IMG/VR virus record: IMGVR_UViG_2529292906_000018
Strand: one strand, 5' to 3'
Source of the DNA: a virus
Lineage: Duplodnaviria; Heunggongvirae; Uroviricota; Caudoviricetes
Length of the DNA: 36,198 bases
Each line of letters starts with the position of its first letter. Within the stretch, counting starts at the first letter, position 1. The notes beneath the pieces are model-generated. The model saw only the letters and a list, made by a program, of their open reading frames with translations. It had not been told where the DNA came from and searched no databases. Shown here in pieces: positions 9,076-35,867 of the stretch. The translations under genes and the position numbers were made by a program.

Positions 9076-9076
9076 A

Positions 9077-9104: not shown

Positions 9105-9173
9105 TTTTTTGAACGACTTTTTACCCTTCCGGCCCGCATGGCGGCTGGATCCGTCAAGGATCCGTGCGTGCAC

Positions 9174-9190
9174 AAAAAAACGCGTTTTTT
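9174..9190. repeat. near-perfect palindrome A7-CGCG-T6
   Basis: aaaaaaacgcgtttttt at 9174-9190. Confidence 0.4.
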
Positions 9191-9476: not shown

Positions 9477-9502
9477 CGGGGCATAAATTTTTTATGCCCC
9501 GG
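9477..9502. other. strong palindrome/hairpin just 3' of portal gene (possible terminator or cos-associated element)
   Basis: CGGGGCATAAA-tttt-TTATGCCCCGG, stem of about 10 bp. Confidence 0.35.
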
Positions 9503-9527
9503 CGAAGCAGCAGACAAGCGAAGCGCG

Positions 9528-12324: not shown

Positions 12325-12478
12325 TGCTCCCCCTGAGTAATTACAGGAAGATTACCCGCGCGCGAAACCGTTCTCCTTACCCCCCTGTTCTGGCTGTTTT
12401 CTTACAACAAAAGCCCTTTGTATCAGCCTGTTACGCTTTGCCATCATGACTGAAGAACCAGTCAGAGGGGCAAAAACT
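12325..12478. promoter_or_regulatory. divergent late promoter region between P and O
   Basis: 154-bp gap between divergent starts of P (12324, minus) and O (12479, plus); no canonical TGT-N12-ACA Ogr box found by eye. Confidence 0.35.
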
Positions 12479-20211: not shown

Positions 20212-20812
20212 TTCGTTGTTACCACCATCAGCCAGCAATTTCATGCGTTGTGCCGAAGCCGTCGGAACACGCATTACAGACATTCCGGTAGACCTCAACA
20301 CGCTGTGGTCGCCGGACACCTGCCCGGTGCATCTGCTGCCTTATCTCGCCTGGGCGTTTTCCGTTGACCGCTGGGATCGCAACTGGCCGGAAGAGACAAA
20401 GCGACAGGTGATTCGTGATGCATGGCTGATACACCGACACAAAGGGACCATCAGCGCACTGCGAAGAGCCGTGGAGCCTCTCGGCTACCTGATTGAAGTA
20501 AAGGAGTGGTGGCAACTCAACGAGGAGCCGGGAACATTTCGCATTGTTGTCGGAGTACTTGATCAGGGCATCACCGATGAAATGTATCAGGAACTTGAGC
20601 GCCTTATTGCGGATGCAAAACCAGTAAGTCGCCATCTGACGGGGCTGGCGATCAGCCTGAGTGTGAACGGAAAGATTTTCGTTGGTACGGGATGCTATCA
20701 CGGCGATGCCCTGACGGTTTATCCCTACACCCCGGAGTCCATTATTGTCGAAGGGGATTATTTCCCTGCCCCAGCCATTCATTTAATTGATAATCTGAGA
20801 GTAAACGCATGA
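20204..20812 (+). CDS. I: baseplate protein I (P2 gpI-like)
   Basis: ATG 20204 with AAGGTGGA SD, overlapping J stop; within ORF 20171..20812. Confidence 0.75.
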   Translation: MSNSLLPPSASNFMRCAEAVGTRITDIPVDLNTLWSPDTCPVHLLPYLAWAFSVDRWDRNWPEETKRQVIRDAWLIHRHKGTISALRRAVEPLGYLIEVKEWWQLNEEPGTFRIVVGVLDQGITDEMYQELERLIADAKPVSRHLTGLAISLSVNGKIFVGTGCYHGDALTVYPYTPESIIVEGDYFPAPAIHLIDNLRVNA

Positions 20813-22404
20813 CAGTGAAATACTACGCCATTCTGACTAATCAGGGCGCGGCACGACTGGCTAACGCGACGATGCTCGGCAGTAAGCTGAATCTGACGCA
20901 AATGGCCGTTGGTGATGCAAATGGTGTGTTACCAACACCAGACCCTGCACAAACAAAACTGATTAACCAGAAACGCATTGCACCGCTGAATCTTCTGAGT
21001 GTTGACCCTAACAATCAGAGCCAGATTATTGCGGAGCAAATCATCCCTGAAAACGAGGGAGGATTCTGGATCCGTGAGATTGGTCTTTATGATGATGAAG
21101 GTGTACTCATTGCGGTGGCAAACTGCCCGGAAACGTACAAACCGCAGTTGCAGGAAGGCAGTGGACGCACCCAGACTATCCGCATGATTCTGGTTGTCAC
21201 GAACACCGAAGCCATCACGCTGAAAATCGACCCGTCTGTGGTTCTGGCAACCCGCAAATATGTGGATGATAAAATATCAGAGCACGAACAGTCACGACGT
21301 CACCCGGACGCCTCGCTGACCGTAAAAGGTTTTACTCAGTTAAGCAGTGCAATTAACAGTGAATCAGAAACACTGGCCGCAACACCGAAAGCGGTTAAGG
21401 CTGCATATGACCTGGCTAACGAGAAATATACCGCCCAGAACGCCACCACTACACAAAAAGGGATTGTTCAGCTCAGTAGCGCCACGAACAGCACGTCTGA
21501 AACACTGGCAGCGACACCAAAAGCTGTTAAGGCGGTAATGGATGAAACGAACAAGAAAGCACCATTAAACAGCCCGGCACTGACCGGAACGCCAACAACA
21601 CCAACAGCGCCACAGGGGACTAATAGTACCCAGATCGCAAGCACGGCTTTCGTTATGGCCGCGATTGCCGCACTTGTAGATTCGTCACCTGATGCACTGA
21701 ACACGCTGAACGAACTGGCTGCGGCGCTGGGCAATGACCCGAATTTTGCGACCACCATGACTAACGCGCTTGCGGGTAAGCAACCGAAGGATGCCACCCT
21801 GACGGCGCTGGCGGAGCTTGCTACATCAGCAGATAAACTCCCATATTTTACAGGGGCAGATCGTGCCGCGTTAACCGCGTTGACAAGTGTTGGACGTGCC
21901 ATTCTTGGTAAAACCAGCACTCAGGGCGTTCTTGATTACCTTGGTTTAGGGGAAGGCTCTGCACTGCCCGTTGGTGTACCTGTTCCATGGCCCTCAGCCA
22001 CGCCGCCAACGGGGTGGCTGAAATGTAACGGCGCAGCATTTTCTTCTGAAATGTATCCCAGACTGGCAATGGCTTACCCCACCAATAAATTACCAGACTT
22101 ACGCGGTGAATTTATCCGTGGCTGGGATGATGGGCGCGGGGTGGATGCCGGAAGGGGCATCTTAAGCATGCAGGGGTGGTTAACAGGAAGTCATTATCAT
22201 AATATTCGGTCATGGGACGCGTGGGATAACACGGTACTGGTGCCAAATGACAAAGGAGGGGATAGTTTGTTGTCGACAGATAACGCCGTCCGGCAAGGTG
22301 CAATTAACGGTAGATTTACCAGTCAATACAGAACGGAATCCTCAGGGGGGAATGAAACCCGCCCACGCAATATTGCCTTCAATTATATTGTGAGAACCGC
22401 ATAA
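20809..22404 (+). CDS. H: tail fibre protein H (constant N-terminal part plus currently expressed variable C-terminal cassette)
   Basis: 531 aa; internal repeats (TQLSSAINSESETLAATPKAVKA / VQLSSATNSTSETLAATPKAVKA); C-terminal third shares a junction motif (GLGEGSALPVGVPVPWPSATPPTGWLKCNGAAF) and a terminal motif (ETRPRNIAFNYIVR) with the downstream inverted cassettes. Confidence 0.85.
   Translation: MTVKYYAILTNQGAARLANATMLGSKLNLTQMAVGDANGVLPTPDPAQTKLINQKRIAPLNLLSVDPNNQSQIIAEQIIPENEGGFWIREIGLYDDEGVLIAVANCPETYKPQLQEGSGRTQTIRMILVVTNTEAITLKIDPSVVLATRKYVDDKISEHEQSRRHPDASLTVKGFTQLSSAINSESETLAATPKAVKAAYDLANEKYTAQNATTTQKGIVQLSSATNSTSETLAATPKAVKAVMDETNKKAPLNSPALTGTPTTPTAPQGTNSTQIASTAFVMAAIAALVDSSPDALNTLNELAAALGNDPNFATTMTNALAGKQPKDATLTALAELATSADKLPYFTGADRAALTALTSVGRAILGKTSTQGVLDYLGLGEGSALPVGVPVPWPSATPPTGWLKCNGAAFSSEMYPRLAMAYPTNKLPDLRGEFIRGWDDGRGVDAGRGILSMQGWLTGSHYHNIRSWDAWDNTVLVPNDKGGDSLLSTDNAVRQGAINGRFTSQYRTESSGGNETRPRNIAFNYIVRTA
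21929..21954 (+). other. invertase crossover site inside H (hix/gix-like)
   Basis: TTCTTGATTACCTTGGTTTAGGGGAA resembles the Hin-family 26-bp site (hixL TTCTTGAAAACCAAGGTTTTTGATAA as recalled); lies at the constant/variable junction. Confidence 0.55.
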
Positions 22405-23015
22405 TGAATAACGCGATATTAAATGATGACCTTATTGCCGTACAGGCAGGAAACATCGTCGTTTATAACTATGATGGTGAGACACGGGAATATATTTCCG
22501 AATCAACTGAATATCTTGCTGTGGGTGTCGGTATTCCGGCAAATTCCTGTTTAGATGCCCCGGGCGCACATAAAGCGGGCTATGCTATCCGCCGTTCGGA
22601 GAATTTAAGTTCATGGGAGTATGCGCCAGACCATCGTGGTGAAACCGTCTATAGCACTGACACGGGAAACACCGAAGAAATCACGGCGCTGGGTGACTAC
22701 CCGAAAAATACAACCACTATCGCCCCGTTAACACCATACGATAAATGGGATGGTGAAAAATGGGTGACAGATACTGAGGCACAACATCGTGCCGCAGTAG
22801 AAGCGGCAGAAACCAAGCGCCAGTCACTGGCTGATGCGGCAATGGCTTCCATAAGTCTGATTCAGTTGAAGTTGCAGGCCGGGCGGAAGTTGACGCAGGC
22901 AGAAACCACCCGGCTTAATGCCGTGCTGGATTATATAGACGCGCTGAACGCAATGGATATAAACATGACACCAGATATCAACTTGCCGGAAATACCACTG
23001 GCAGCAGCCAGTTGA
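22404..23015 (+). CDS. G: tail fibre assembly chaperone (P2 gpG-like)
   Basis: 203 aa ORF immediately after H with ATG overlapping the H stop. Confidence 0.75.
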   Translation: MNNAILNDDLIAVQAGNIVVYNYDGETREYISESTEYLAVGVGIPANSCLDAPGAHKAGYAIRRSENLSSWEYAPDHRGETVYSTDTGNTEEITALGDYPKNTTTIAPLTPYDKWDGEKWVTDTEAQHRAAVEAAETKRQSLADAAMASISLIQLKLQAGRKLTQAETTRLNAVLDYIDALNAMDINMTPDINLPEIPLAAAS

Positions 23016-23021
23016 ATATAA

Positions 23022-23468
23022 CTAAGCCGCCCTCACGATATAGTTAAATGCAATATTGCGGGGGCGGGTTTCACTACCACCTGTGTTACCAATACTTCCT
23101 CGTGAATGAAGCGTTGGTGATGGAATCAAACTCCCTCCTGTATTTGTGGCATCAAGCCCCCTGCCTTGTGTATATGTTTTTTTGAAAATCGTAGCCAACT
23201 CCCATTCATCTTTTGTGTCATATCCATCGTTAGCTACAACAATATGGCGGTGTTTTTCCAACATCCCGTTTTGAATGCTCAATAAAGCGCGTGCCGCATC
23301 AATTCCTCGCCCATCATCCCAGCCACGGATAAATTCGCCCCGTAAATCCGGTAATTTATTGGTGGGGTAGGCCTTTGCCAGATTGGGGTACATTTCAGAA
23401 GAAAATGCTGCGCCGTTACATTTCAGCCACCCCGTTGGCAGCGTGGCTGAGGGCCATGGAACGGGCAC
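23022..23468 (-). CDS. silent alternative tail-fibre C-terminal cassette 2 (promoterless, invertible)
   Basis: Begins with the H junction motif (V)PVPWPSATLPTGWLKCNGAAF and ends ETRPRNIAFNYIVRAA; listed start is an in-frame GTG, the frame continues into the crossover site. Confidence 0.6.
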   Translation of the reverse strand: MPVPWPSATLPTGWLKCNGAAFSSEMYPNLAKAYPTNKLPDLRGEFIRGWDDGRGIDAARALLSIQNGMLEKHRHIVVANDGYDTKDEWELATIFKKTYTQGRGLDATNTGGSLIPSPTLHSRGSIGNTGGSETRPRNIAFNYIVRAA

Positions 23469-23489
23469 ACCAACGGGCAGTGCAGAACC

Positions 23490-23515
23490 TTCTCCTAAAC
23501 CAACGTTTTCATGCG
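23490..23515 (-). other. invertase crossover site 2 (inverted relative to the H site)
   Basis: TTCTCCTAAACCAACGTTTTCATGCG; reverse complement shares GTTGGTTTAGGAGAA with the H-site half. Confidence 0.5.
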
Positions 23516-23982
23516 GCTCTTACGATGTAATTAAATGCAACGTTGCGAGGGCGAGTTTCTGTACCTACATTTCCACTAATTTCACCAAACCGTTTTACAT
23601 TACGAGAGCTAATGGCTCGTAGTGAGGAAGGCACCTTTAAACCGGGTTCGTCTGTTTTAACTATTCCCCCGTCCCCGTATGTAGCCAGTATTCCAGGGTT
23701 TACTCCTTCCCGTGTACTTCCCGCGGCAAGTCCATCCCCGGTCCATAATTCCATATAGTGTGCATGATCCAAAATTGTGTGTGGCTGCCAATTAAGCAAA
23801 GCGCGGCCAGCATCCACCCCGCGCCCATCATCCCAGCCACGAATAAATTCACCCCGTAAATCCGGTAATTTATTGGTGGGGTAGGCCTTTGCCAGATTGG
23901 GGTACATTTCAGAAGAAAATGCTGCGCCGTTACATTTCAGCCACCCCGTTGGCAGCGTGGCTGAGGACCATGGAACGGGCAC
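23509..23982 (-). CDS. silent alternative tail-fibre C-terminal cassette 3
   Basis: Same conserved N-terminal junction and C-terminal ETRPRNVAFNYIVRAA motif, different central segment. Confidence 0.6.
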   Translation of the reverse strand: MPVPWSSATLPTGWLKCNGAAFSSEMYPNLAKAYPTNKLPDLRGEFIRGWDDGRGVDAGRALLNWQPHTILDHAHYMELWTGDGLAAGSTREGVNPGILATYGDGGIVKTDEPGLKVPSSLRAISSRNVKRFGEISGNVGTETRPRNVAFNYIVRAA

Positions 23983-24003
23983 ACCAACGGGCAGCGCCGA
24001 GCC

Positions 24004-24029
24004 TTCTCCTAAACCAACGTTTTCATGCG
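24004..24029 (-). other. invertase crossover site 3
   Basis: Identical 26-mer TTCTCCTAAACCAACGTTTTCATGCG. Confidence 0.5.
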
Positions 24030-24232
24030 GCTCTTACGATGTAATTGAATGCAACGTTGCGGGGGCGTGTTTCTGCTGTGCCGACAATACTGGTACTCAG
24101 TCCTGTCGCTGTTCGTTTGTTATTTTTATTCCCTTCGATAAGACAGTTGTAATCGTCATTACCAATTAACGAGTTGGTGGCATCAATACTGTCCGGGGAC
24201 AAGGCATTAGTTGTGGAACTTAAAGTCAGCAT
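24023..24232 (-). CDS. alternative tail-fibre cassette 4, distal segment (after -1 frame change)
   Basis: Ends AETRPRNVAFNYIVRAA; frame is open upstream to 24298; joins the 24256..24612 ORF if the A6 run at plus 24289-24294 is read one base longer. Confidence 0.5.
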   Translation of the reverse strand: MLTLSSTTNALSPDSIDATNSLIGNDDYNCLIEGNKNNKRTATGLSTSIVGTAETRPRNVAFNYIVRAA

Positions 24233-24255
24233 CTCGTCTGAACTTGGAAGATTTT

Positions 24256-24612
24256 TTAATGGGGTTTCATTACGTGAAATACCCGCATAAAAAAGGACTC
24301 ATGCCTGTGCGCTTCAAAGGAGTCATCCTGAAGACTTAGCAAGGCACGCCCAGCATCCAAGCCACGTCCATCATCCCAGCCACGGATAAATTCACCCCGT
24401 AGATCCGGTAATTTATTCGCGGGGTAAGCCTGTGCCAGTTTGGGGTAATCTTCAGAAGAAAATGCTGCGCCGTTACATTTCAGCCAGCCCGTTGGCGGTG
24501 TAGCTGAGGGCCACGGAACGGGTACACCAACGGGCAACGCAGAGCCTTCCCCCAAACCAACGTTTTCGTCTTTATCCCTACCTATACCAACTATGTATTT
24601 TTCACGAAACAA
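24256..24612 (-). CDS. alternative tail-fibre cassette 4, proximal segment
   Basis: Contains GLGEGSALPVGVPVPWPSATPPTGWLKCNGAAFSSEDYPKLAQAYPANKLPDLRGEFIRGWDDGRG, then runs out of frame. Confidence 0.5.
   Translation of the reverse strand: MFREKYIVGIGRDKDENVGLGEGSALPVGVPVPWPSATPPTGWLKCNGAAFSSEDYPKLAQAYPANKLPDLRGEFIRGWDDGRGLDAGRALLSLQDDSFEAHRHESFFMRVFHVMKPH
24547..24572 (-). other. invertase crossover site 4, adjacent to the invertase gene
   Basis: TTCCCCCAAACCAACGTTTTCGTCTT, a variant of sites 2 and 3. Confidence 0.45.
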
Positions 24613-24626
24613 AGAGGATGTTTTTT

Positions 24627-25226
24627 ATGCAAATTGGCTATATTCGTGTGTCAACAAATGACCAGAACACGGATTTACAACGCAATGCACTGAACTGCGC
24701 AGGATGTGAACTGATTTTTGAAGATAAAATCAGCGGAACGAAATCAGCCAGACCGGGATTGAAAAAACTGCTCAGAACGCTATCAGAAGGAGATACGCTG
24801 GTTGTCTGGAAGCTGGACAGACTGGGCAGAAGTATGAAACACCTGATCACGCTTATTGAGGAATTGCGGGAAAAAGGTGTTAATTTCCGTAGTCTGACGG
24901 ACAGCATTGACACATCAACACCCATGGGGCGTTTCTTTTTTCACGTCATGGGGGCTTTAGCCGAAATGGAACGTGAATTAATTGTAGAACGTACACTGGC
25001 CGGGCTGGCAGCAGCACGCGCACAAGGACGCATTGGCGGACGTCGCCCGAAGTTGACAAAAGAACAACACGAGCAAATAGCGAGGCTGATTAAAAACGGT
25101 CATGACAGGAAACAACTGGCGATCATTTACGACATCGGCATATCGACGATTTATCGTTATCACCCTGTAGGCGATATACAGGCTGAAGAAACAACCAGGC
25201 AGACTCAGGAAAATGAAAACCGCTAA
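24627..25226 (+). CDS. serine DNA invertase (Hin/Gin/Cin/Pin family)
   Basis: MQIGYIRVSTNDQNTDLQRNAL...GDTLVVWKLDRLGRSMKHL...FRSLTDSIDTSTPMGRFFFHVMGALAEMERELI is near-identical in pattern to Gin/Hin as recalled; ATG 24627 within ORF 24618..25226. Confidence 0.9.
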   Translation: MQIGYIRVSTNDQNTDLQRNALNCAGCELIFEDKISGTKSARPGLKKLLRTLSEGDTLVVWKLDRLGRSMKHLITLIEELREKGVNFRSLTDSIDTSTPMGRFFFHVMGALAEMERELIVERTLAGLAAARAQGRIGGRRPKLTKEQHEQIARLIKNGHDRKQLAIIYDIGISTIYRYHPVGDIQAEETTRQTQENENR

Positions 25227-25245
25227 TCTGACCATTAGCGGTTTT
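25216..25245. terminator. bidirectional rho-independent terminator between invertase and U
   Basis: AAAACCGCTAAT-ctgacc-ATTAGCGGTTTT hairpin with T tracts on both strands. Confidence 0.6.
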
Positions 25246-25252
25246 GCGTTAA

Positions 25253-25747
25253 TCAAAACAGCCCTTTAACGGAGCTGGCCGCGCTGTTAAGGGATGATGT
25301 GACCTTATCTTTGAAGCCGGACAGCATATCACTGAACGATGAGGATTGCAGGCGCTCCCGCAAATCCTCATCACAGCGTTCAAGAGTCAGTGAAAATTCT
25401 ATCTTTTTCGCCTTACCGTAGCGATCAAACTCGGAGCGGGTCGTATTCGTTCCGGTCAGGACATACATGCCGTAAATCTGCCCGACACCATCAATCAGAG
25501 GCCAGGGGCGTCCTGTATATGCCTGCGTGGTCAGCAACGAAAGCGACACTTCGCCACCTGTAATTTCAGGATAAAGCACACCAGAAAGAACGATGCGATC
25601 ATCGCCTGCCCCGATATACTGCCAGCTTGCTGAACGGTTAACGCGTTCATTTTTCACATGCCGCCAGCTTTTGTTTTGCTGTAACTGCTGATGCGGCAAC
25701 GTGCGCAGCTCAAAAACAAACATGCCGTAGATCATCATCATGGCCAT
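25253..25747 (-). CDS. U: tail protein U (P2 gpU-like)
   Basis: 164 aa ORF downstream of the tape measure gene; N-terminus MAMMMIYGMFVFELRTLP resembles gpU as recalled. Confidence 0.75.
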   Translation of the reverse strand: MAMMMIYGMFVFELRTLPHQQLQQNKSWRHVKNERVNRSASWQYIGAGDDRIVLSGVLYPEITGGEVSLSLLTTQAYTGRPWPLIDGVGQIYGMYVLTGTNTTRSEFDRYGKAKKIEFSLTLERCDEDLRERLQSSSFSDMLSGFKDKVTSSLNSAASSVKGLF

Positions 25748-25753
25748 GACTCC

Positions 25754-28570
25754 TCAATCTTTATCGTAAAAACTGCCACGCCCGGCACGGGCGCGCCGTT
25801 CCATTTCTGCCCTGACCATTTCACCGACCAGTTTCGCCAGTTCGCGGGGATTCTGCGTAACAACGTTATGCAGATGAACATGAATTTCACCACCAAATCC
25901 GGAGGCAACAGGCTCCCGGTTACGGGAAGTTACAGGAACTGATGCCACTGGAGATCGTATGGCCTCCGCCACCGGGTGGGAGCTGGCCGCAACAACAGGG
26001 ACCAGCGCCGGAGGCAGCGGAGCCGGGACCACGGGGGTGATATTAATTGCGGGGGCAGGCTTACTGACCTGTGCAATCTTCCGCTCCTGCCACTCCCCAC
26101 GAACAGCAAGTGCGCGGGGCAAGTTCTTAAAGACAATATCGCCGGGGCCAATGCGTTTTTTCGTCTCATCAACCAGCTTACCTGTGTTATCAGCAATTTT
26201 GCTGAGTCTGCGTAGCGTCCCAGTATTGCTGTCTGTGAGCGGTTTGTTGTCTTTGGGTTTATCACCTCCGGTGCCATTGCCATTTTCCACAGGCTTCGGC
26301 GGATTGATTTTCGCCAGGTCCCCCTGAAGTAAGGCAACCTTGTCCTGAAGAATGGCCGCACGCTGTGCGTCTTCGATTTTCTTGCGCGCCCTTTCCGCTT
26401 CATCCGGAAGGACGCCAAGTTTTTCAAGTATCCACGCCAGCGTATCCAGTAGCATTTTTGCAGGTGTCAGAACAAGTTGTAACGCACCGCCAAGAACGTT
26501 ACCGAATACCTCGCCAGCACTGGTACATTTATCCAGCGTTTCCTTGCTGGACTCCATCGGTGACAACAGCGATTTAAACCAGTTAAACACCTGGCTGATC
26601 CCGCTTCCGATTGCGTCAAAAACAGGACCAAACCGTTCAAAGGTTTCGCGCAACGGGGTCAGCCTTTCCATAATCCCGCTGAACACCCCGGCAAAAAATG
26701 CCCTGATGGGATCCCAGTATTTCCAGATGAGAACGGCAGCTCCGGCAAGCGCAGCCACGATAAGACCGACCGGACTGAACAACGCCCCGATAGCGCCCCC
26801 CAGTAACGAAACGGAACCCGTCACCATTCCCCATAGTGCTGGCAGAACCCTGACAGCATTCATTGATCCGGTCAGGAGGGAAAAACCAAGACGCAGTTTT
26901 GCCAGCGGACCAGCAAGCACACCAATAGCCAGCGACAACGAGCCAACCGTTGCAGTCATTGCCAGCAGTGCACCGCCTGCAATCAGTAGCTGGCGCGTCA
27001 GTGCGGGATGGGCCTGCGCCAGCGCCGTCACCTTTGATACCACACGCGTGAGCCACTGCGTGACAGAACGCAGCGGACCGTCAATCAGATCTGCAATGCG
27101 GATGCGCAACCCTTCCCATGCACTGCTGAGTGATTTCAGATCGCCGTCAAGGTTGTTGGCCATAACCTTTGCCGTGCGTTCAGCCTCACCGCGCGCGCCT
27201 TCAAGTTCTTTTCTCAGTTTGGGTAAGGAGCCGTCACCTGCCGCATCAACGAGGGCCATAAATGATGTGAAAGCCTCTTCTCCGGCAATGTCCTTAAAGA
27301 ACGATACCCGGTCAACTTCCCCGTATTTGCGGGTAGCTTTATAAAGGTCAGCCAGCACATCCTCCATCGGGCGCATTTTGCCCCCGGCATCCGAGACAGA
27401 CACGCCAAGCTCTTTCAGCGCCTCTGCTGCCGCCTTTGGCGGTGATGCCAGACGAGCCAGGCTGGCACGCATTGCCGTACCAGCATCACTCCCCCTGATA
27501 CCCATATTCGCCAGCACGCCCGCCATCGCTGCGGCCTGCTCCAGCGATATTCCCAGCTTACCCGCCACCGGACCTGCATATTTCATGGTTTCACCCAGTG
27601 CGCGAAGGTCAGTGTTGGTACGGGTAAACGCTGCGGTGAGTGTGTCGCCGACCCGGTCCATCTGGTCAGCAGAAAGACCGAACTGCGTCAGAATATTTGA
27701 GCCAATATCCGCCGTCTCACCGAGGTCCATACCGCCAGCCGTTGCCATGCTCAGTACGCCAGGGAGCGCAGCCTGAATGGCCTGTGGTGTGAAGCCAGCC
27801 ATTGCAAGAAATGCCTGCCCACTGGCGGCATCGCCTGCGGTGAACTGCGTTTCAGAGCCAAGTTTTAACGCCTGCTCACGCAGCGCCTTAAACTGCGGGC
27901 TGTTTTTGTCGATTCGCGTCAGTGCCTGAACGCGGGACATCTCTTTCCCGAACCCGATCGCAGGCTGCAAAAAACGCCCGGCAGCATAGCCGCCCGCCGC
28001 TGCCGCACCAATTGCCAGCGCACCACCTGTTTTCAGTTTTCCCGCTGTTTCCTGCGCGCGCGAATACCGCTCACGCGCCCGCGTTACACGCGCAAGCGCC
28101 TGCCGTTCGCGTTCAAGCTGGTTGTTGTACTGTTCGGTGCGTCTGATGGCCTGCTGGATGGTGTTATCGCTGCCTGTCAGGGAAATGCCGTGGCGTTTCA
28201 GCTCTCCGCCAAGCTCCCGCATTTTCTGAATTTCCCGTGTGCGCGATTCATTCAGGCGTTCAAGCCGGGTGCTTAACTGCTGCATCAGCTTTTGTTGTTT
28301 TTCGCTGAGCACTGTACCCGTGCGTTGTAACTGATTAAGGGCGTTAAGCTGGCGTCGTGCTTTCACGATACCCGCATCCGCTTTACTGACAGCGTCGCGG
28401 GCGCGCTCAAATGAACGCGCCTGACGCTCGAGATTTTTGATCGCCCCCTGCGTTCGCTGGATGGAGTCACCAAACTGCCCCATCAGGCGGCGGGCGTTTT
28501 CGGCAGGCCGGGTCAGCCTGTCAACGGCGCTGAAAGCGACCCGGATGTCAAGAGTCTTCATTATCTGCAT
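25754..28570 (-). CDS. T: tail tape measure protein (P2 gpT-like)
   Basis: About 940 aa, Ala/Gly-rich coiled-coil protein with hydrophobic central region; start ambiguous (ATG 28570, ATG 28561 or GTG 28597). Confidence 0.85.
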   Translation of the reverse strand: MQIMKTLDIRVAFSAVDRLTRPAENARRLMGQFGDSIQRTQGAIKNLERQARSFERARDAVSKADAGIVKARRQLNALNQLQRTGTVLSEKQQKLMQQLSTRLERLNESRTREIQKMRELGGELKRHGISLTGSDNTIQQAIRRTEQYNNQLERERQALARVTRARERYSRAQETAGKLKTGGALAIGAAAAGGYAAGRFLQPAIGFGKEMSRVQALTRIDKNSPQFKALREQALKLGSETQFTAGDAASGQAFLAMAGFTPQAIQAALPGVLSMATAGGMDLGETADIGSNILTQFGLSADQMDRVGDTLTAAFTRTNTDLRALGETMKYAGPVAGKLGISLEQAAAMAGVLANMGIRGSDAGTAMRASLARLASPPKAAAEALKELGVSVSDAGGKMRPMEDVLADLYKATRKYGEVDRVSFFKDIAGEEAFTSFMALVDAAGDGSLPKLRKELEGARGEAERTAKVMANNLDGDLKSLSSAWEGLRIRIADLIDGPLRSVTQWLTRVVSKVTALAQAHPALTRQLLIAGGALLAMTATVGSLSLAIGVLAGPLAKLRLGFSLLTGSMNAVRVLPALWGMVTGSVSLLGGAIGALFSPVGLIVAALAGAAVLIWKYWDPIRAFFAGVFSGIMERLTPLRETFERFGPVFDAIGSGISQVFNWFKSLLSPMESSKETLDKCTSAGEVFGNVLGGALQLVLTPAKMLLDTLAWILEKLGVLPDEAERARKKIEDAQRAAILQDKVALLQGDLAKINPPKPVENGNGTGGDKPKDNKPLTDSNTGTLRRLSKIADNTGKLVDETKKRIGPGDIVFKNLPRALAVRGEWQERKIAQVSKPAPAINITPVVPAPLPPALVPVVAASSHPVAEAIRSPVASVPVTSRNREPVASGFGGEIHVHLHNVVTQNPRELAKLVGEMVRAEMERRARAGRGSFYDKD

Positions 28571-29086
28571 TCCCGCTGCGAAGTGCCGCCCGCTCACGCC
28601 AGCTAACCACTTCGCCGGGCGTCATCATGAAGATTTCGGCGGGCGACCAGTTAAAAATGGCGGCAATATCCGCCACCAGATCTTCGATGTGCTCAAAGCA
28701 CACCAGGGTGATTACGCTGCCGTCTCCTGCACGCTCTTCGCGCCAGAGTCTGGCTCGCTCATAAAATTTACAGCCACAGCGCACAACTGAATAAAATCGC
28801 GTGACGACATTTTTTTAATCATCACTTCATCCAGTCGTGGCGAGGTCACGCGAGGCAACAGCGTGAACATGGTATCCGCTTTCAGATTCAGCACATCAGA
28901 CAGCGACAGACCACGCAGGGATCCCGCCTGCTCAATAGCCCCGGTGATTTCCACATATGTGATTTTTTCGGCACCACGCTCAATTGGCCGGGAAAGTTTT
29001 ACACCACGTTCGACAGCCATATCCTCACCTGCCGTCACATCATCCGCTACGGTGTTATTCCGGGTTTCAGTATCGATGTCTTTCAT
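28548..29086 (-). CDS. E+E': E+E' fusion chaperone produced by programmed -1 translational frameshift
   Basis: The -1 frame opens immediately after a TAA embedded in an A7 run (plus 28810-28816) inside E and runs to 28548; second candidate slippery heptamer A_AAT_TTT at plus 28763-28769; this architecture is conserved in P2-type and lambda-type tails. Confidence 0.65.
28712..29086 (-). CDS. E: tail assembly chaperone E (P2 gpE-like)
   Basis: 124 aa ORF with AAGGAGA SD between the tube gene and the tape measure gene. Confidence 0.75.
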   Translation of the reverse strand: MKDIDTETRNNTVADDVTAGEDMAVERGVKLSRPIERGAEKITYVEITGAIEQAGSLRGLSLSDVLNLKADTMFTLLPRVTSPRLDEVMIKKMSSRDFIQLCAVAVNFMSEPDSGAKSVQETAA

Positions 29087-29141
29087 CAGTTGTCTCCTTT
29101 TCAGTCAGAGGCGACGCACTGCGTCGCCTGCATATTACTTA

Positions 29142-29654
29142 TCAGCCAAGCCCAAGCGCGGAGCGAATGCGGTCAGGCACAATGTCCTTGCCGTCCTTCC
29201 GGTAGATGTGGTTCAACAGGTCGATTTCCCACAGCGGGCGATCGTTAACACTCAGCTTGTAGTAGGTGTTTTTGACAGCGTATGTGTGTGATGTGGCCTC
29301 GCCCTGTTTGGCCTCCCCCATATCAATTTCCGTCACACGCCCACGCATCTCGATTTCATACAGATCGCTTTCTGCATCGGTGTAATATTCACCCGCAAAA
29401 CGCAGCAGCGTGCCGTCAATCGTGCCGCCATACTTAAGGAACAGTGCACGAACAGCTCCACCCATGACAAAGCTCGCATCAAGCGCGGAGTCGTCCAGAC
29501 CGAGATCAATACTTACCGCCCCCATCATGCCACCACCACGATAACTGTCGGTTTTGCGCGTCAGTTTGGGCGGCGTGACGGATGTCACTTTACCCACTTC
29601 GTTTTCACCATCCACAAACAACGTAAAAAAGCGAAGATGTTTTGGTACAGCCAT
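29142..29654 (-). CDS. FII: tail tube protein (P2 gpFII-like)
   Basis: 170 aa ORF immediately downstream of the sheath gene. Confidence 0.85.
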   Translation of the reverse strand: MAVPKHLRFFTLFVDGENEVGKVTSVTPPKLTRKTDSYRGGGMMGAVSIDLGLDDSALDASFVMGGAVRALFLKYGGTIDGTLLRFAGEYYTDAESDLYEIEMRGRVTEIDMGEAKQGEATSHTYAVKNTYYKLSVNDRPLWEIDLLNHIYRKDGKDIVPDRIRSALGLG

Positions 29655-30838
29655 CAGGCACCTCCCAGCACCGCAAATGCGGGACCAAAGAATTCATCAG
29701 TAAACGTCTGGTAAAGCTCCATGTCTTCCAGCGGGGGAACGGGCGTATATTTGTAGCGAATACGCACACGCCCCTGACGTAAATCCGTGGTGCCGTTATC
29801 CACCACGTCATACCAGCACTCCGCGCCAATCAGTTTCCCGGCAGTAACCAGCGAATCCAGTTTTGCCCTGATGGCGCTGATAACATCCTTCACGTTCGCA
29901 GGCGTCAGTGGACTGTCGATGGTTTCAAACTGCGCTTCCGCAATTGAATCAGCCAGCACCTGTGCGGTTCGGGTATACACCTCAAAGATGTAGGCGTTCG
30001 TTTCCGGTGTGCGGTTGCCCCAGAAGCGGAACCCGTTGCGACGAATAATGGTCGTGATTTCTTTGTTATTGAGGCTGTTGGCATCACTGTCTTCGGCCTG
30101 CAACGACCAGAACACATGCCTCGACATCCCCAGCACATTTTTAACCGGGACGTTGGACAGCGATTTGTGCCAGCCCTGCTCATGGTCAATGTACGCACGA
30201 AGGCCGCACGCATAAGCAGGCGCGGGGAACGTTTCGTTTTTGCCACCTTTCGGGTTGTAGGCGATGAAGTCAGGCCATAAGAGCATCACCTCACGTTCGT
30301 TGAATTTCTGGCGGTAGGTAATCGCCTCAGCCATCGTGTTACAACCATGACATGTGGCATACACAAACGCGCGCAGTTTACCCGCAATCACGCACAGGGA
30401 TTTTGTTACCGCCTCCGTGTCCAGCTCCGGCGCGGCCAGAATACGCGGACGGTATCCGATGCTTTCATCCTGCTCTGCAACAAGCAGCGCATACATCCCC
30501 GTATAGCTGCCATCATCCTCAGAACCACCGATAACCAGTTGATCCTGCGTCTTTCCGTCTTCTTCTTTGTGTTCAGCCACGCGAACGACGATCACCTTTG
30601 TGCTCACCTGGTCTGCGATGGCCTTAAGCGCACGATAAAGCGTCCCCGTTGACCCGCATTTTCCCAGCACGTCATTGACGCGGGTCAGCATTGTGGGCTT
30701 GTTCAGCGGGAACAGCTTCGCGTCCGCATCATCCGCCGTTGCCACGATACCGATAACGCTGGAATCAACATCGTTAATCGCTGTTACCAGGTCGGTATTT
30801 TCCGTAACACGGGCACCATGAAAACGAGTTTCACTCAT
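29654..30838 (-). CDS. FI: contractile tail sheath protein (P2 gpFI-like)
   Basis: 394 aa ORF (MSETRFHGARVTENTDLV...); AAGGGG SD. Confidence 0.9.
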   Translation of the reverse strand: MSETRFHGARVTENTDLVTAINDVDSSVIGIVATADDADAKLFPLNKPTMLTRVNDVLGKCGSTGTLYRALKAIADQVSTKVIVVRVAEHKEEDGKTQDQLVIGGSEDDGSYTGMYALLVAEQDESIGYRPRILAAPELDTEAVTKSLCVIAGKLRAFVYATCHGCNTMAEAITYRQKFNEREVMLLWPDFIAYNPKGGKNETFPAPAYACGLRAYIDHEQGWHKSLSNVPVKNVLGMSRHVFWSLQAEDSDANSLNNKEITTIIRRNGFRFWGNRTPETNAYIFEVYTRTAQVLADSIAEAQFETIDSPLTPANVKDVISAIRAKLDSLVTAGKLIGAECWYDVVDNGTTDLRQGRVRIRYKYTPVPPLEDMELYQTFTDEFFGPAFAVLGGA

Positions 30839-30995
30839 AGCTTCAGCCCCTTGTATCCGTTAAATGATTCGGCAACAATCATCACCCACCACGCGCGTAA
30901 TCTCACCCCTGCGCCATTCTCCCGCCACGGCGACAACAAAAAGCAGTAACCCCCTCCGCACGCACATGCGACCATGCCATACAGGGAGGGAACAG
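30839..30995. promoter_or_regulatory. divergent promoter region between FI (minus) and D (plus)
   Basis: 157-bp gap between divergent starts; promoter elements not resolved by eye. Confidence 0.3.
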
Positions 30996-31736
30996 ATGAC
31001 CGACACCACCATGCAATTGCTCAGTCAGGGCACAGACCCCGTGAAAATGCCGGATTTTGATATTCTCGCGGAGGGTAAAACGCTGTCAGGCATGGCAGAG
31101 CGCCTGATGAGCCTGTCACTGACCGACAACCGGGGATTTGAGGCGGACCAGCTCACCATCACGCTGGATGATGCGGATGGTCAGTTGCAGCTACCGCCAC
31201 GGGGCGCGCGCCTGACGGTTCTCATTGGCTGGAAAGGAGAACCGCTGACAGAAAAAGGCACTTACATTGTTGATGAAATTGCTCATGAAGGACCGCCCGA
31301 CAGACTGACCATTTCAGCCAGAAGCGCAGATTTTCGGGATGAATTTAACGTCAAGCGCGAAGTATCTTGGCATGATGTGACCGTTGAACGCGTGGTGTCT
31401 GCAATTGCTCACCGATACGGCCTGAAACCGCAAATCAGCGAAATGCTGATGGATATTGAAATCGACCACGCTGACCAGACCGAAGAAAGCGACATGTCCT
31501 TCCTTACGCGCATGGCGGAAATGCTGGGCGCAATCACCACGGTAAAAAGCGGCAATCTGTTATTCATCATGCCAGGTGGTGGCGTGAACGCACAGGGGCA
31601 GCCGTTGCCCTCGTTCGCCATTACACGCAGCAGCGGCGATCGCCATCAGTTCCGCATTGCTGACCGCGAGGCGTATACGGGGGTACGCGCCTACTGGCTT
31701 GATCTTAATTACGGGAAAAAGAAAAAGTCAGCGTGA
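30996..31736 (+). CDS. D: tail protein D (late control gene D family), N-terminal ORF
   Basis: ATG 30996 after GGGAGGG; gpD-family pattern (...SLTDNRGFEADQL...FLTRMAEMLGA...FRIADREAYTGVRAYW); ends inside a Lys-rich AAAAAGAAAAAG tract. Confidence 0.8.
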   Translation: MTDTTMQLLSQGTDPVKMPDFDILAEGKTLSGMAERLMSLSLTDNRGFEADQLTITLDDADGQLQLPPRGARLTVLIGWKGEPLTEKGTYIVDEIAHEGPPDRLTISARSADFRDEFNVKREVSWHDVTVERVVSAIAHRYGLKPQISEMLMDIEIDHADQTEESDMSFLTRMAEMLGAITTVKSGNLLFIMPGGGVNAQGQPLPSFAITRSSGDRHQFRIADREAYTGVRAYWLDLNYGKKKKSA

Positions 31737-32104
31737 AACGCCGCAAACCGCCAAAACCCAAAAAGGAGAAAAGCAGCAGTCGGGAAGGCGACTATATGGA
31801 AGGTGCGGAAGGCAACGTGTTTGTGTTACGCAAGACTTATCAGAACGAGCAGGCAGCAAGACGCGCAGCGGCGGCAAAGTGGCAGCAGCTACAACGCGGA
31901 GCCGCATCATTCTCCATCACGCTGGCGCGTGGTCGTGCAGAACTCTATCCCGAAATGCATGGCACAGTGACAGGCTTTAAAAGCGAGATTGATTATCAGG
32001 ACTGGATTATTGCAAAAGCCGAGCACACCATTGATAACAGCGGCTTTACCACGCAGCTTGAACTTGAAGCAAAAATCCCGGAATGGATAGCAGAAACAGA
32101 ATAA
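31733..32104 (+). CDS. D: tail protein D, C-terminal segment in -1 frame
   Basis: EGDYMEGAEGNV...AAAKWQQLQRGAASFSITLARGRAELYPE...GFKSEIDYQDW...SGFTTQLELE matches the gpD C-terminal domain as recalled; frame is open back to 31709; joins the N-terminal ORF if the A5 run at 31716-31720 or 31722-31726 is A6. Confidence 0.7.
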   Translation: MKRRKPPKPKKEKSSSREGDYMEGAEGNVFVLRKTYQNEQAARRAAAAKWQQLQRGAASFSITLARGRAELYPEMHGTVTGFKSEIDYQDWIIAKAEHTIDNSGFTTQLELEAKIPEWIAETE

Positions 32105-32256
32105 ATCTCTTAAAAATATTATTTTTGAGATGTGCTTCTACACTGACAGTAAGAACAAAAGATAATGTATCAGCCCACTAGATGTCAGAGGTTGGGGCAT
32201 CAACCAGATGCTAACAATAATACGGATGTTTTTCCCACATGACAGAGGAAGTCAAG

Positions 32257-32352: not shown

Positions 32353-33300
32353 ATGATTGGACAATTTTTAAGTGCAACAGAGATTTTAGCAAAGAACTAT
32401 GTTCGTAATAAAATGGTTAAAAATCCATTTTATTCGAATTTAAAATGGAATTTTATTGAAAAAAACATCATAAGATTAACATCCTCACCGGTTAAATCAG
32501 TACTTTGCATATCAGCTTTTTCATTTGTACTACTTTATGTTGGATATTTAAACGAATTATTTATAAAAAATAATCTTTTACATTATTTCCCGTTTAGGCA
32601 TTCATTAACCGAATGGCAAACAACCATTTTAAGTGGCCAATTGACAATTATTGGTATTGTATACCCCCTTGTTATAGGTTTAGTAAGTGTCTTATTCCAA
32701 AAAAAGGCAGATAGAAAAATAGCCCAAACTGCTTATCAGCGTTACTCAGGATTCATGCTTGCTGGACTCAGCGGGCTTTTCTTATCAGGATTTATACTTC
32801 TCAGTGTACTAATTAAAACTGTCTTTGGAAGTTATCTTTATGGTATAGCTTGTCTAATCAGCATATTATGGCTTTTGATAAACATAGTTCTTTCTATTTG
32901 GTTCTTTATCGTGAGTCTTGAAATTCTTGATGATGTAAAACGGCAAATAATTATAAAGCGATACATTGCCTTCGAAATAGTAATGCCCCATATTTGTAAC
33001 AAAATCTCAGCCAAGCTTAGGTTATACCCTATCTATCAAAAACATAACTATTCAAATTTAGAAATCAAGCAAGCCGATTACAAAGGAGAATACATATCTG
33101 TGGCTAGCGGTTATTCTAAGGAAGATGAGTTAAGTTTATATCACCGTCCTTTTCAACTTACTCTTAATCTTATTAATTGCCAACTAAAAAGAAGAATCAT
33201 TTTGCGTCATTTGTCATTGGTGATAATCGTGCAAAAGAAACAGAATCCACGGGTAAGATACTTTTTAGCGTTAAAAATATCAAACCAGACAGCTTATTAA
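32353..33300 (+). CDS. hypothetical polytopic membrane protein (about 4 TM helices), AT-rich island gene 1
   Basis: 315 aa ORF; hydrophobic stretches VLCISAFSFVLLYVGYL, LTIIGIVYPLVIGLVSVLF, FMLAGLSGLFLSGFILLSVLI, LYGIACLISILWLLINIVLSIWFFIVSL; very AT-rich codon usage. Confidence 0.55.
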   Translation: MIGQFLSATEILAKNYVRNKMVKNPFYSNLKWNFIEKNIIRLTSSPVKSVLCISAFSFVLLYVGYLNELFIKNNLLHYFPFRHSLTEWQTTILSGQLTIIGIVYPLVIGLVSVLFQKKADRKIAQTAYQRYSGFMLAGLSGLFLSGFILLSVLIKTVFGSYLYGIACLISILWLLINIVLSIWFFIVSLEILDDVKRQIIIKRYIAFEIVMPHICNKISAKLRLYPIYQKHNYSNLEIKQADYKGEYISVASGYSKEDELSLYHRPFQLTLNLINCQLKRRIILRHLSLVIIVQKKQNPRVRYFLALKISNQTAY

Positions 33301-35606: not shown

Positions 35607-35867
35607 ATGTTCCGTTGTCCGCTTTGTGGCGCATCTGCCCGTATCCGCACCAGTCGTCCGGAAAATGATTCAAACACCGTGAGACAAAAGTATTATCAGT
35701 GTAACAATCTAGAATGCGGCGTATGTTTCTCAACACTGGAAGCCTTCCACAAATTCACTTCAAAGCACGCCTCCCCCATTCACTCATCAGAGGGCATCCC
35801 GTGGCATGAACTGCCAACTTCACACAGAGGAAACAATCAGATGAGTTTGCCCTTACCTCAGAATTAA
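35607..35867 (+). CDS. ogr: late gene transcriptional activator Ogr (zinc-finger)
   Basis: MFRCPLCGASARIRTSR...YYQCNNLECGVCF matches P2 Ogr (MFHCPLCQHAAHARTSR...YHQCQNVNCSATF) as recalled, C-x2-C...C-x4-C; AGAGAGG SD. Confidence 0.85.
   Translation: MFRCPLCGASARIRTSRPENDSNTVRQKYYQCNNLECGVCFSTLEAFHKFTSKHASPIHSSEGIPWHELPTSHRGNNQMSLPLPQN

What the first reader, a model, noticed from the sequence alone, without database searches (positions are those of the whole stretch)
25253..30995. Tail sheath/tube/chaperone/tape-measure/U block is inverted relative to canonical P2 synteny and is transcribed divergently from D
In P2 the genes FI, FII, E, T, U and D form one rightward operon after H and G. Here FI-FII-E-T-U lie on the minus strand while H, G and D are on the plus strand, with a 157-bp divergent gap between FI and D, so D must have its own promoter. 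One breakpoint (about 25247) abuts the invertase gene and its bidirectional terminator. This is either an ancient lineage-specific arrangement or a large inversion, possibly invertase-mediated through a secondary site.
Basis: inference. Interest (0 to 1): 0.45.

Follow-up and report, generated by a model that had tools for sequence, protein, structure and literature searches.

The report
Fixed tail-operon inversion in P88-like prophage
The tail sheath-to-U gene block really is flipped relative to phage P2, but this is the normal, long-fixed gene order of a whole branch of working P2-family phages (P88, phiSM, SEN4 and relatives), not a recent or invertase-driven flip, so it is ordinary.

Summary
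U, T, E, FII and FI lie on the minus strand (25253-30838). H, G, the invertase and D lie on the plus strand. A 157-bp divergent gap separates FI from D, and a bidirectional terminator sits between the invertase and U.

The window is a P88-like (Xuanwuvirus) prophage. The same order occurs in plaque-forming phages P88, phiSM and SEN4/5, in phiT5282H, and in PhiR44_2, which has no invertase. It occurs in all 80 IMG/VR relatives and in 25 species-representative loci from about 16 enterobacterial genera. The FI|D junction is intact in 1356 of 1380 E. coli genomes that carry it. A synthetic P2-type U-to-D junction is found in 0 of 1413.

More distant relatives (FI 50% identity or less), P2 included, are all collinear. 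The inverted loci form one clade in the FI and D trees. No crossover-like site lies at either breakpoint.

An Ogr-type dyad lies 78-88 bp upstream of FI in both arrangements. In the inverted clade it sits mid-gap, placed as in P2's shared pP/pO site, so D is probably expressed from a divergent late promoter sharing that site (inferred).

Interest is low.

The parts
20809..22404 (+). Tail fibre gene H. The active crossover site of the invertible system lies at 21929-21954.
   Evidence: PHROG tail fibre hits. The 240-bp repeat and hix-like site TTCTTGATTACCTTGGTTTAGGGGAA are shown.
22404..23015 (+). Tail fibre assembly gene G
   Evidence: phrog_105, E=2.7e-90
23022..24612 (-). Three silent alternative H C-terminus/G cassettes, with crossover sites at 23490-23515, 24004-24029 and 24547-24572. 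This is the real invertible region.
   Evidence: Inverted repeats I1-I3 of 219-240 nt at 84-91% identity, their alignment and the site coordinates.
24618..25226 (+). Serine DNA invertase of the Hin/Gin/Pin type
   Evidence: phrog_125, E=3.9e-99
25212..25250 (.). Bidirectional intrinsic terminator hairpin between the convergent invertase and U genes
   Evidence: Terminator scan. Fold of -16.9 kcal/mol with z-score -4.3.
25253..25747 (-). Tail gene U
   Evidence: phrog_76, E=8e-75. Annotated as GpU in PhiR44_2.
25754..28597 (-). Tape measure gene T. The ORF is maximal; the likely ATG start is 28561 by homology with P88. It overlaps the E' extension at about 28548-28703.
   Evidence: phrog_28, E=1e-217. 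P88 annotation and sequence.
28712..29086 (-). Tail chaperone gene E
   Evidence: phrog_103, E=3e-36. Annotated as GpE in PhiR44_2.
29142..29654 (-). Tail tube gene FII
   Evidence: phrog_55, E=1e-58. Annotated as major tail tube protein in P88.
29654..30838 (-). Tail sheath gene FI
   Evidence: phrog_23, E=1.7e-123. Homologues carry PF04984.
30839..30995 (.). The 157-bp divergent FI/D intergenic region. It is the inferred site of the leftward pF promoter and a rightward D promoter.
   Evidence: Sequence. Conserved blocks across 10 diverged relatives. The sigma-70 scan found no promoter here.
30918..30935 (.). Dyad TCTCCCGCCACGGCGACA (T[G/C]T-N12-ACA), the candidate Ogr-type activator site. 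Its centre is 88 bp from the FI ATG and 69 bp from the D ATG.
   Evidence: The position is conserved in the clade, and the dyad is a perfect TGT-N12-ACA in Brenneria, Pectobacterium, LSJC7 and SEN4. A like dyad lies 78-88 bp upstream of FI in 25/27 inverted and 46/55 collinear loci. The P2 pF site centre is 83 bp from the FI ATG.
30996..32104 (+). Baseplate hub gene D. In this window it is split into two ORFs by a 1-nt deletion in an A-run near 31721.
   Evidence: phrog_52 and PF05954 hits on both pieces. A5 here versus A6 in P88, phiSM, PhiR44_2 and most relatives.
35607..35867 (+). Ogr/Delta-type zinc-finger late activator. A cargo gene at 32353-35471 separates it from D.
   Evidence: PF04606, 52.3 bits against a cutoff of 26.3. 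Annotated as an ogr/Delta-like zinc finger family protein in a relative.

Best explanation
The window carries a P88-like (Xuanwuvirus, Peduoviridae) prophage. Its pF-FI-FII-E-T-U unit is inverted relative to P2 because of a single old inversion. That inversion became fixed in the ancestor of a broad enterobacterial branch of P2-family phages: Xuanwuvirus, Novemvirus, related Klebsiella and Serratia prophages, and probably Senquatrovirus. It is the stable, functional gene order of that branch. It is not a switch and not a product of the neighbouring invertase. The invertase only flips the tail-fibre cassettes between 21929 and 24572.

One breakpoint fell between U and D. This uncoupled D from U, whose stop overlaps the D start in P2. 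The other breakpoint fell just outside the activator site of the F-operon late promoter, so promoter and site travelled with FI.

D now sits on the far side of that dyad-symmetric site with its own ribosome-binding site. It is most likely transcribed from a divergent Ogr-dependent late promoter that shares the single central site with pF, as P2's pP and pO promoters share one site.

Shown: the arrangement, its distribution, the absence of crossover sites, and the conserved position of the dyad. Inferred: use of the dyad by Ogr in both directions, and start sites near 30871 (minus strand) and 30982 (plus strand).
For: Clade-wide synteny:
- P88, P884B11, phiSM, 520873, 500465-2, PhiR44_2 and Chuche align collinearly across invertase/U...FI/D at 92-96% identity.
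- Annotations show U-T-E-FII-FI on one strand and D on the other.
- Novemvirus phiT5282H (FI 75% identical) and Senquatrovirus SEN4 (55%) have the same order without an invertase.
- All 80 IMG/VR relatives share it; one of them (L075) also carries a secondary rearrangement in T/U.
- Among GTDB species representatives, 25 loci with FI at 69% identity or more are inverted, 54 with FI at 50% or less are collinear, and one is too short to call.
- The FI|D junction is intact in 1356 of 1380 E. coli genomes. The P2-type U-to-D junction is found in 0 of 1413.

Polarity of the change:
- Inverted loci are monophyletic in the FI and D trees, nested among collinear loci. The collinear set includes non-enterobacterial outgroups such as Pseudomonas, Marinobacter, Psychrobacter and Neisseriaceae.

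Functional phages with this order:
- P88 forms plaques with a burst size of about 65 (PMC5285337).
- phiSM is active (PMC6456863).
- SEN4/5 is a plaque-forming myovirus (PMC5261728).

Promoter evidence:
- A TGT-N12-ACA-like dyad lies 78-88 bp upstream of FI in 25/27 inverted and 46/55 collinear loci. Chance expectation is about 7.6% per locus.
- The dyad is 64-71 bp from the D ATG across the clade (SEN4 about 76 bp by its annotation), and its ACAA half is the only invariant run of 4 nt in the intergenic alignment.
- P2 annotation places one shared pO/pP site 55-56 nt from both start sites, and the pF site 83 bp from the FI ATG.
- An Ogr/Delta homologue is encoded at 35607-35867.
Against: - No transcription start site or activation data exist for this clade, so the bidirectional-promoter model rests on geometry and conservation only.
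- In the window the dyad is TCT-N12-ACA, one mismatch from the P2 consensus. The motif count in the whole window is not above chance: 3 found against 2.1 expected.
- The candidate -10 for D in the window (TGCGAC) is poor.
- The similar dyad in the window's P-O gap (12389-12406) lies only about 48 bp from the O ATG. That does not fit a strict -55 geometry for O.
- SEN4 groups with the inverted clade for FI and D but not for FII, U or J in simple NJ trees. A single origin including SEN4 is therefore not proven.
- The trees are p-distance NJ with midpoint rooting, without support values.
Confidence: 0.9

Rival explanations
1. The block is, or recently was, a large invertible segment. On this view the adjacent serine invertase flips it through a degenerate secondary crossover site in the FI-D gap and another next to the invertase gene.
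For: The invertase gene and its terminator directly abut the U-side breakpoint. The phage has four active-looking crossover sites nearby.
Against: - The best match to any of the four sites is 13 of 26 in both breakpoint regions, which is background. About 2.6% of all window positions reach 13 or more.
- No inverted repeat pairs the two ends.
- The same order occurs in phages and prophages without an invertase, including PhiR44_2, phiT5282H, SEN4 and 20 of 25 GTDB inverted loci.
- Collinear phages with an invertase keep the P2 order in 8 loci.
- No genome among 1413 shows the other orientation.
Confidence: 0.02
2. The inverted block is an assembly or scaffolding artefact of this particular sequence.
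For: The window has two 1-nt homopolymer length differences from close relatives, at 31721 and 33185. These hint at an error-prone assembly.
Against: Both junctions are reproduced at 96-100% identity in hundreds to more than a thousand complete genomes and in independently sequenced phage genomes.
Confidence: 0.01
3. The arrangement is old and fixed, but D is not under the shared Ogr site. Instead it would be transcribed from an independent promoter, either sigma-70 or controlled by another factor, and the dyad would serve FI only.
For: - The dyad sits at the ancestral pF distance from FI in both arrangements, so its conservation could be explained by pF alone.
- A second conserved block, CGCGCGCGTG, lies between the dyad and D and could belong to a different control element.
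- The predicted D leader would be only about 14 nt in the window.
Against: - The scan found no sigma-70-like promoter on the plus strand of the gap.
- The dyad-to-D distance is held at 64-71 bp across relatives whose intergenic sequence is otherwise poorly conserved.
- TGnAAT-like hexamers lie 43-48 nt on each side of the dyad centre in most relatives (own reading of the alignment).
- P2 provides a precedent for one site serving two divergent late promoters.
Confidence: 0.25
4. The inversion arose more than once, for example separately in the SEN4 lineage. Alternatively, the inverted order is ancestral for enterobacterial P2-family phages and the P2 order is derived.
For: SEN4 falls outside the inverted clade for FII, U and J in NJ trees. 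Phage genomes are mosaic, so single-gene trees may mislead.
Against: - FI and D trees put all inverted loci, SEN4 included, in one clade.
- SEN4 shares the same breakpoints, a 157-bp gap and the dyad position.
- Distant non-enterobacterial relatives are all collinear.
Confidence: 0.1

Closest known systems
Escherichia phage P88 / Xuanwuvirus (also P884B11, Citrobacter phage phiSM, PhiR44_2)
   Same: The window matches P88 at 96% nucleotide identity over about 76% of 24.5 kb, and at 94-96% over the tail region. The gene order is identical: H G [invertase] | U T E' E FII FI (opposite strand) | D. The 157-bp FI-D gap is the same.
   Different: - The window has four crossover sites with three silent fibre cassettes.
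- It carries a rare 3.1-kb low-GC cargo gene between D and ogr.
- It has single-base homopolymer frameshifts in D and in the cargo gene.
Bacteriophage P2 (Peduovirus) F operon
   Same: The genes are homologous (FI about 48% identical). A dyad activator site lies about 83 bp upstream of the FI ATG. An Ogr-family activator gene lies downstream of D.
   Different: In P2, FI-FII-E-T-U-D-ogr is one rightward unit co-oriented with H and G, and the U stop overlaps the D start. Here FI to U is inverted, and D stands alone with its own ribosome-binding site.
P2 pP/pO divergent late promoters with one shared Ogr-binding site
   Same: Two divergent late transcription units are separated by 157 bp here and 173 bp in P2, with a single dyad near the middle. 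In P2 the site centre is 56 nt and 55 nt from the two mapped start sites. Here the dyad centre is 88 bp from the FI ATG and 69 bp from the D ATG.
   Different: The P2 case is experimentally mapped, as recorded in its annotation. The FI/D case is inferred only. The window's dyad has one mismatch (TCT instead of TGT).
Din-family invertible segments (Gin/Cin/Pin/Min, Hin)
   Same: A serine invertase gene lies next to the block. Genuine 26-bp crossover sites with an AAACC-NN-GGTTT core lie in the neighbouring fibre region.
   Different: The FI-U block has no flanking crossover sites, and only one orientation is seen in nature. Only the 21929-24572 fibre cassette region qualifies as a Din-type invertible segment.
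Novemvirus phiT5282H and Senquatrovirus SEN4/5
   Same: Both have the same inverted tail block, divergent D, and a dyad at the same place.
   Different: They are different genera (FI 75% and 55% identical). Neither has an invertase, and each carries different cargo at the G/U convergent junction, such as a macro-domain protein in SEN4.

Membership tests
Xuanwuvirus (P88-like) prophage, Peduoviridae | Genome-wide nucleotide similarity to the type phage at genus level, roughly 70% or more as identity times coverage | tested here: met
   96.2% identity over 76% of window 500-25000 against P88. 93.9-96.3% identity over 91% of 24000-32200 against P88 and P884B11.
Xuanwuvirus (P88-like) prophage, Peduoviridae | P2-family structural gene set (Q P O N M L, V W J I H G, FI FII E T U D, ogr) with a P2-type GpA replication protein and an integrase | tested here: met
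   PHROG and Pfam hits for the tail genes, GPA, integrase and Ogr_Delta. P88 annotation is collinear with the window.
Xuanwuvirus (P88-like) prophage, Peduoviridae | Clade-specific synteny: the FI-U block on the opposite strand to H/G and D | tested here: met
Din/Hin-type invertase-controlled invertible segment (as a description of the FI-U block) | 26-bp crossover sites in inverted orientation at both ends of the segment | tested here: not met
   The best similarity at 25180-25300 and at 30800-31020 is 13 of 26, which is background. The four real sites score 26 of 26. No inverted-repeat pair flanks the block.
Din/Hin-type invertase-controlled invertible segment (as a description of the FI-U block) | Both orientations occur among close relatives or within populations | tested here: not met
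   0 of 1413 E. coli genomes have the alternative U-to-D junction. 1356 of 1380 keep the FI|D junction. All 80 IMG/VR loci have FI and D divergent.
Din/Hin-type invertase-controlled invertible segment (as a description of the FI-U block) | The arrangement depends on the presence of the invertase | tested here: not met
   Inverted order without an invertase occurs in PhiR44_2, phiT5282H, SEN4 and 20 of 25 GTDB loci. Collinear order with an invertase occurs in 8 loci.
Din/Hin-type invertase-controlled invertible segment (as a description of the FI-U block) | Fis-dependent recombinational enhancer acting on the sites | not tested
   Not examined. It is irrelevant once the sites are absent.
P2-type Ogr-dependent late promoter (for the FI/D gap) | An Ogr/Delta zinc-finger activator encoded by the phage | tested here: met
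   PF04606, 52.3 bits against a cutoff of 26.3, for 35607-35867. The match to the NCBIfam equivalog is below its cutoff.
P2-type Ogr-dependent late promoter (for the FI/D gap) | TGT-N12-ACA dyad centred about 55 nt upstream of the start site | tested here: inconclusive
   TCT-N12-ACA lies at 30918-30935, and four diverged relatives have a perfect TGT-N12-ACA at the same position. Its distance to the FI ATG equals that in P2 and in 46 of 55 collinear relatives. The start sites are unknown.
P2-type Ogr-dependent late promoter (for the FI/D gap) | Transcription activated late, dependent on Ogr and the RNA polymerase alpha subunit | not testable with these tools
   This needs transcript mapping or reporter assays.

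The most novel reading that the evidence does not exclude
After the ancestral inversion, the dyad-symmetric Ogr site of the F-operon promoter was co-opted to drive a new, oppositely directed late promoter for the orphaned baseplate-hub gene D. This would create a second pP/pO-like bidirectional late control region. It would be a natural example of an essential gene being rescued after an operon break by the symmetry of an activator site. The published descriptions of these phages that could be read here (PMC5285337, PMC6456863, PMC5261728) do not mention this. Casjens and Grose 2016, which may discuss it, was not held in the library.
Probability: 0.55. Interest if true: 0.3.

Novelty: already known. 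Interest (0 to 1): 0.12.

Why it matters
Little changes for biology at large. The gene order is the standard one for a recognised group of P2-family phages, and about a quarter of complete E. coli genomes carry it.

It matters in three practical ways:
- Annotators should not flag this order as a rearrangement or misassembly.
- The invertase should be credited only with tail-fibre switching.
- The FI/D gap offers a compact natural test of whether one symmetric Ogr site can serve two divergent late promoters after an operon has been split.

Tried and rejected
- **Exact TGT-N12-ACA search.** Six hits in the window, none in the FI-D gap and not above chance. Relaxing to T[G/C]T and using conservation across relatives located the site.
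- **Crossover-site scan.** A generic AAACC-NN-GGTTT scan with two mismatches and a 26-mer similarity scan against the four real sites found nothing at the breakpoints.
- **Inverted repeats.** The search over 20800-31100 found only the fibre-cassette repeats and short chance pairs.
- **Sigma-70 promoter scan.** It found no promoter in the gap.
- **Literature.** Searches for an explicit description of the inversion (P88, Xuanwuvirus, SEN4, gene order) turned up papers that establish function but do not discuss gene order. Casjens and Grose 2016, which may discuss it, is not held.
- **First tree attempt.** It timed out and was rerun with faster settings.
- **Invertase-less relatives.** The idea that close invertase-less relatives never had an invertase was rejected. 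PhiR44_2 and others retain the last 59 nt or so of the invertase gene plus the terminator (the match starts at window 25168), so they lost the cassette secondarily. The independence argument therefore rests on the more distant genera and on collinear phages that carry an invertase.
- **Cargo gene.** Pfam, PADLOC and NCBIfam searches gave no hits.
Full report
**What is there.** The six-frame ORF list and PHROG and Pfam searches show a P2-family prophage. Its genes, in order, are:

| Gene | Coordinates | Strand |
|---|---|---|
| Integrase | 596-1720 | - |
| GpA replication protein | 4870-7185 | + |
| Portal and terminase | on the minus strand | - |
| Head, lysis and baseplate genes | on the plus strand | + |
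| Tail fibre H | 20809-22404 | + |
| Tail fibre assembly G | 22404-23015 | + |
| Silent fibre cassettes | 23022-24612 | - |
| Serine invertase | 24618-25226 | + |
| U | 25253-25747 | - |
| T | 25754-28597 | - |
| E | 28712-29086 | - |
| FII | 29142-29654 | - |
| FI | 29654-30838 | - |
| D | from 30996 | + |
| Low-GC cargo gene | 32353-35471 | + |
| Ogr/Delta-type gene | 35607-35867 | + |

The D start at 30996 is the start annotated in three related phages. A strong hairpin at 25212-25250 (-16.9 kcal/mol, z = -4.3), with an A-run on one side and a T-run on the other, lies between the converging invertase and U genes.

**Whose gene order this is.** The 8.2-kb region aligns in a single collinear piece, at 92-96% identity, with seven phages: Escherichia phage P88, Xuanwuvirus P884B11, Citrobacter phage phiSM, and phages 520873, 500465-2, PhiR44_2 and Chuche. 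The rest of the prophage is 96% identical to P88 over about 76% of its length. The annotations of P88, phiSM and PhiR44_2 show the same layout: U, T, E', E, FII and FI on one strand, D on the other.

P88 forms plaques, has a contractile tail and a burst size of about 65 (PMC5285337). phiSM is described as a fully functional temperate phage (PMC6456863). The order is therefore compatible with function.

**How widespread and how stable.**
- A 1-kb probe across the FI|D junction is intact in 1356 of the 1380 complete E. coli genomes that match it. Most exceptions are O157:H7 remnants with IS insertions.
- All 80 IMG/VR relatives retrieved with FI have D divergent from FI. Where the contig extends far enough, H, I and J converge on U.
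- I built an artificial P2-type junction from the last 350 nt of U followed by the first 350 nt of D. None of the 1413 genomes that contain both halves has them joined. There is no sign of switching.

**How old.** I used an FI alignment to pull one locus per species from GTDB genomes and classified each locus by tblastn.
- 25 loci with FI 69-97% identical to the window are all inverted. They come from about 16 genera: Salmonella, Citrobacter, Edwardsiella, Enterobacter, Kosakonia, Klebsiella, Trabulsiella, Erwinia, Pantoea, Mixta, Izhakiella, Brenneria, Pectobacterium, Symbiopectobacterium, Serratia and others.
- 54 loci with FI 42-50% identical are all collinear like P2. They include Pseudomonas, Stutzerimonas, Marinobacter, Psychrobacter and a member of the Neisseriaceae.
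- One locus was too short to call.

Two further ICTV genera share the inverted order without any invertase: Novemvirus phiT5282H (FI 75% identical) and Senquatrovirus SEN4 (55%). SEN4/5 is a plaque-forming myovirus (PMC5261728).

In NJ trees of FI and of D, the inverted loci form a single clade nested among collinear ones. For FII, U and J, SEN4 is the one consistent outlier. Its membership of a single-origin clade is therefore likely but not proven. The simplest reading is one old inversion, derived from the P2 order and fixed in a broad enterobacterial branch.

**Was the invertase involved?** The invertible system is real but lies elsewhere. Four repeats of about 240 bp carry 26-bp hix-like sites at 21929, 23490, 24004 and 24547. 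They allow three silent H C-terminus/G cassettes to be swapped.

Scoring every 26-mer of the window against these sites gives 26 of 26 for the four real sites. The best elsewhere is 17. In each of the two breakpoint regions the best is only 13, which is background. No inverted repeat links the two ends.

Invertase presence does not follow the arrangement: 5 of 25 inverted and 8 of 54 collinear GTDB loci have one. One caveat applies. Close relatives that lack the invertase, such as PhiR44_2, retain the last 59 nt or so of its gene and so lost it secondarily. The argument for independence therefore rests on the more distant lineages. Together with the absence of the alternative orientation, the invertase hypothesis is not supported.

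**How D is probably expressed.** D cannot be co-transcribed with anything upstream. On its strand the preceding 5.7 kb is antisense to the tail operon, behind a terminator.

I aligned the FI-D gap from ten diverged members of the clade. The sequence is poorly conserved except for four features:
- a block near FI (GAGTTC...GTGATAAT);
- a dyad T(G/C)T-N12-ACAAC;
- a CGCGCGCGTG block;
- the D ribosome-binding site.

In the window the dyad is TCTCCCGCCACGGCGACA at 30918-30935. It is a perfect TGT-N12-ACA, the P2-family Ogr site consensus, in Brenneria, Pectobacterium, strain LSJC7 and SEN4. Its centre lies 78-88 bp from the FI ATG and 64-71 bp from the D ATG throughout. For SEN4 the automatic D-start call failed; by its annotation the distance is about 76 bp.

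A dyad with at most one mismatch lies 78-88 bp upstream of FI in 25 of 27 inverted loci and in 46 of 55 collinear loci. Chance expectation is about 7.6% per locus. In P2 the annotated pF activator site is centred 83 bp from the FI ATG. The F promoter and its activator site therefore moved with FI, and the far breakpoint lies just beyond the site.

P2 itself provides the precedent for what follows. Its divergent pP and pO promoters share one annotated activator site, centred 56 nt and 55 nt from the two mapped start sites. By analogy I predict start sites near 30871 (minus strand, FI) and 30982 (plus strand, D). In most relatives, TGnAAT-like hexamers lie 43-48 nt on each side of the dyad centre (my reading of the alignment).

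The weak points are these:
- No start site has been mapped.
- The window's dyad carries one mismatch.
- Its D-side -10 candidate is poor.
- The motif count in the whole window is not above chance.
- The similar dyad in the P-O gap (12389-12406) lies too close to the O ATG for a strict -55 geometry.

I rate the shared-site model at roughly 0.55. An independent D promoter is the main rival.

**Comparison and novelty.** The window is a member of the P88-like genus. Its tail-operon orientation is the annotated gene order of several deposited and published phages. I did not find a paper that discusses the inversion explicitly, and the most likely source, Casjens and Grose 2016, was not available. 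The feature is nonetheless visible in every record.

**Verdict.** Interest is low. The only mildly novel element is the inferred co-option of a symmetric late-activator site to serve the orphaned D gene.

Noticed in passing
window 31716-31721 (gene D, 30996-32104): D is split into two ORFs (30996-31736 and 31733-32104) by a 1-nt shorter A-run, GAAAAAG here against GAAAAAAG in P88, phiSM, PhiR44_2 and about 30 other relatives. One other fetched locus has the same A5. This is either a true inactivating frameshift in an essential tail gene or a homopolymer sequencing error.
   Followed up: partly
window 32353-35471: A low-GC (about 33%) cargo gene lies between D and ogr. In a 99.8%-identical relative it is one 1039-aa ORF with a hydrophobic N-terminal region, which PGAP names 'MFS transporter'. 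In the window it is split by another A6-to-A5 change at about 33185. It is present in only 5 of 5426 complete E. coli genomes and has no Pfam, PADLOC or NCBIfam hit. It may be an uncharacterised moron or defence gene in a P2-family cargo hotspot.
   Followed up: partly
window 32131-32148 and 32227-32244: Two perfect TGT-N12-ACA dyads (TGTGCTTCTACACTGACA and TGTTTTTCCCACATGACA) lie in the 248-bp gap just upstream of the cargo gene. About 0.06 are expected there by chance. They hint that the cargo gene may be under Ogr-type or similar control.
   Followed up: no
window 21929-24572: This is a multi-inversion tail-fibre system. It has one expressed H C-terminus plus G, and three silent cassettes, bounded by four hix-like 26-bp sites (21929, 23490, 24004, 24547) inside repeats of about 240 bp. 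P88 has fewer cassettes.
   Followed up: partly
L075 (IMGVR_UViG_2654587728_000014), locus 3499-10683: One close relative has a secondary rearrangement. The segment equivalent to window 24347-27237 (invertase, U and the 3' half of T) is inverted, with a breakpoint inside T near codon 455. A second, 76%-identical invertase copy sits at the other junction. It is probably a defective or chimeric prophage.
   Followed up: partly
L003 (PhiR44_2) 6001-6087; window 25168-25252: Close relatives without an invertase still carry the last 59 nt or so of the invertase gene plus the terminator next to U. They therefore lost the invertase and cassette region by deletion rather than never having had it.
   Followed up: partly
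L086 (NZ_JBQPOM010000071.1, 'Vagococcus sp. WN89Y'): A contig labelled as a Firmicute carries a P88-like prophage with FI 97% identical to the window. This is probably contamination or mislabelling of the assembly.
   Followed up: no
window 7262-8221 (and the downstream small ORF): The prophage encodes a ParM/StbA-type actin-like segregation protein (PF06406, PF21523). O157:H7 relatives share it, annotated as 'plasmid segregation protein ParM'. This is unusual for an integrating P2-family phage.
   Followed up: no
L004 (E. coli O157:H7 strain 2159): O157:H7 genomes carry a degraded copy of this prophage type. IS3-family elements replace the head genes and D, T is frameshifted, and a serine O-acetyltransferase gene sits at the G/U convergent junction.
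   Followed up: no
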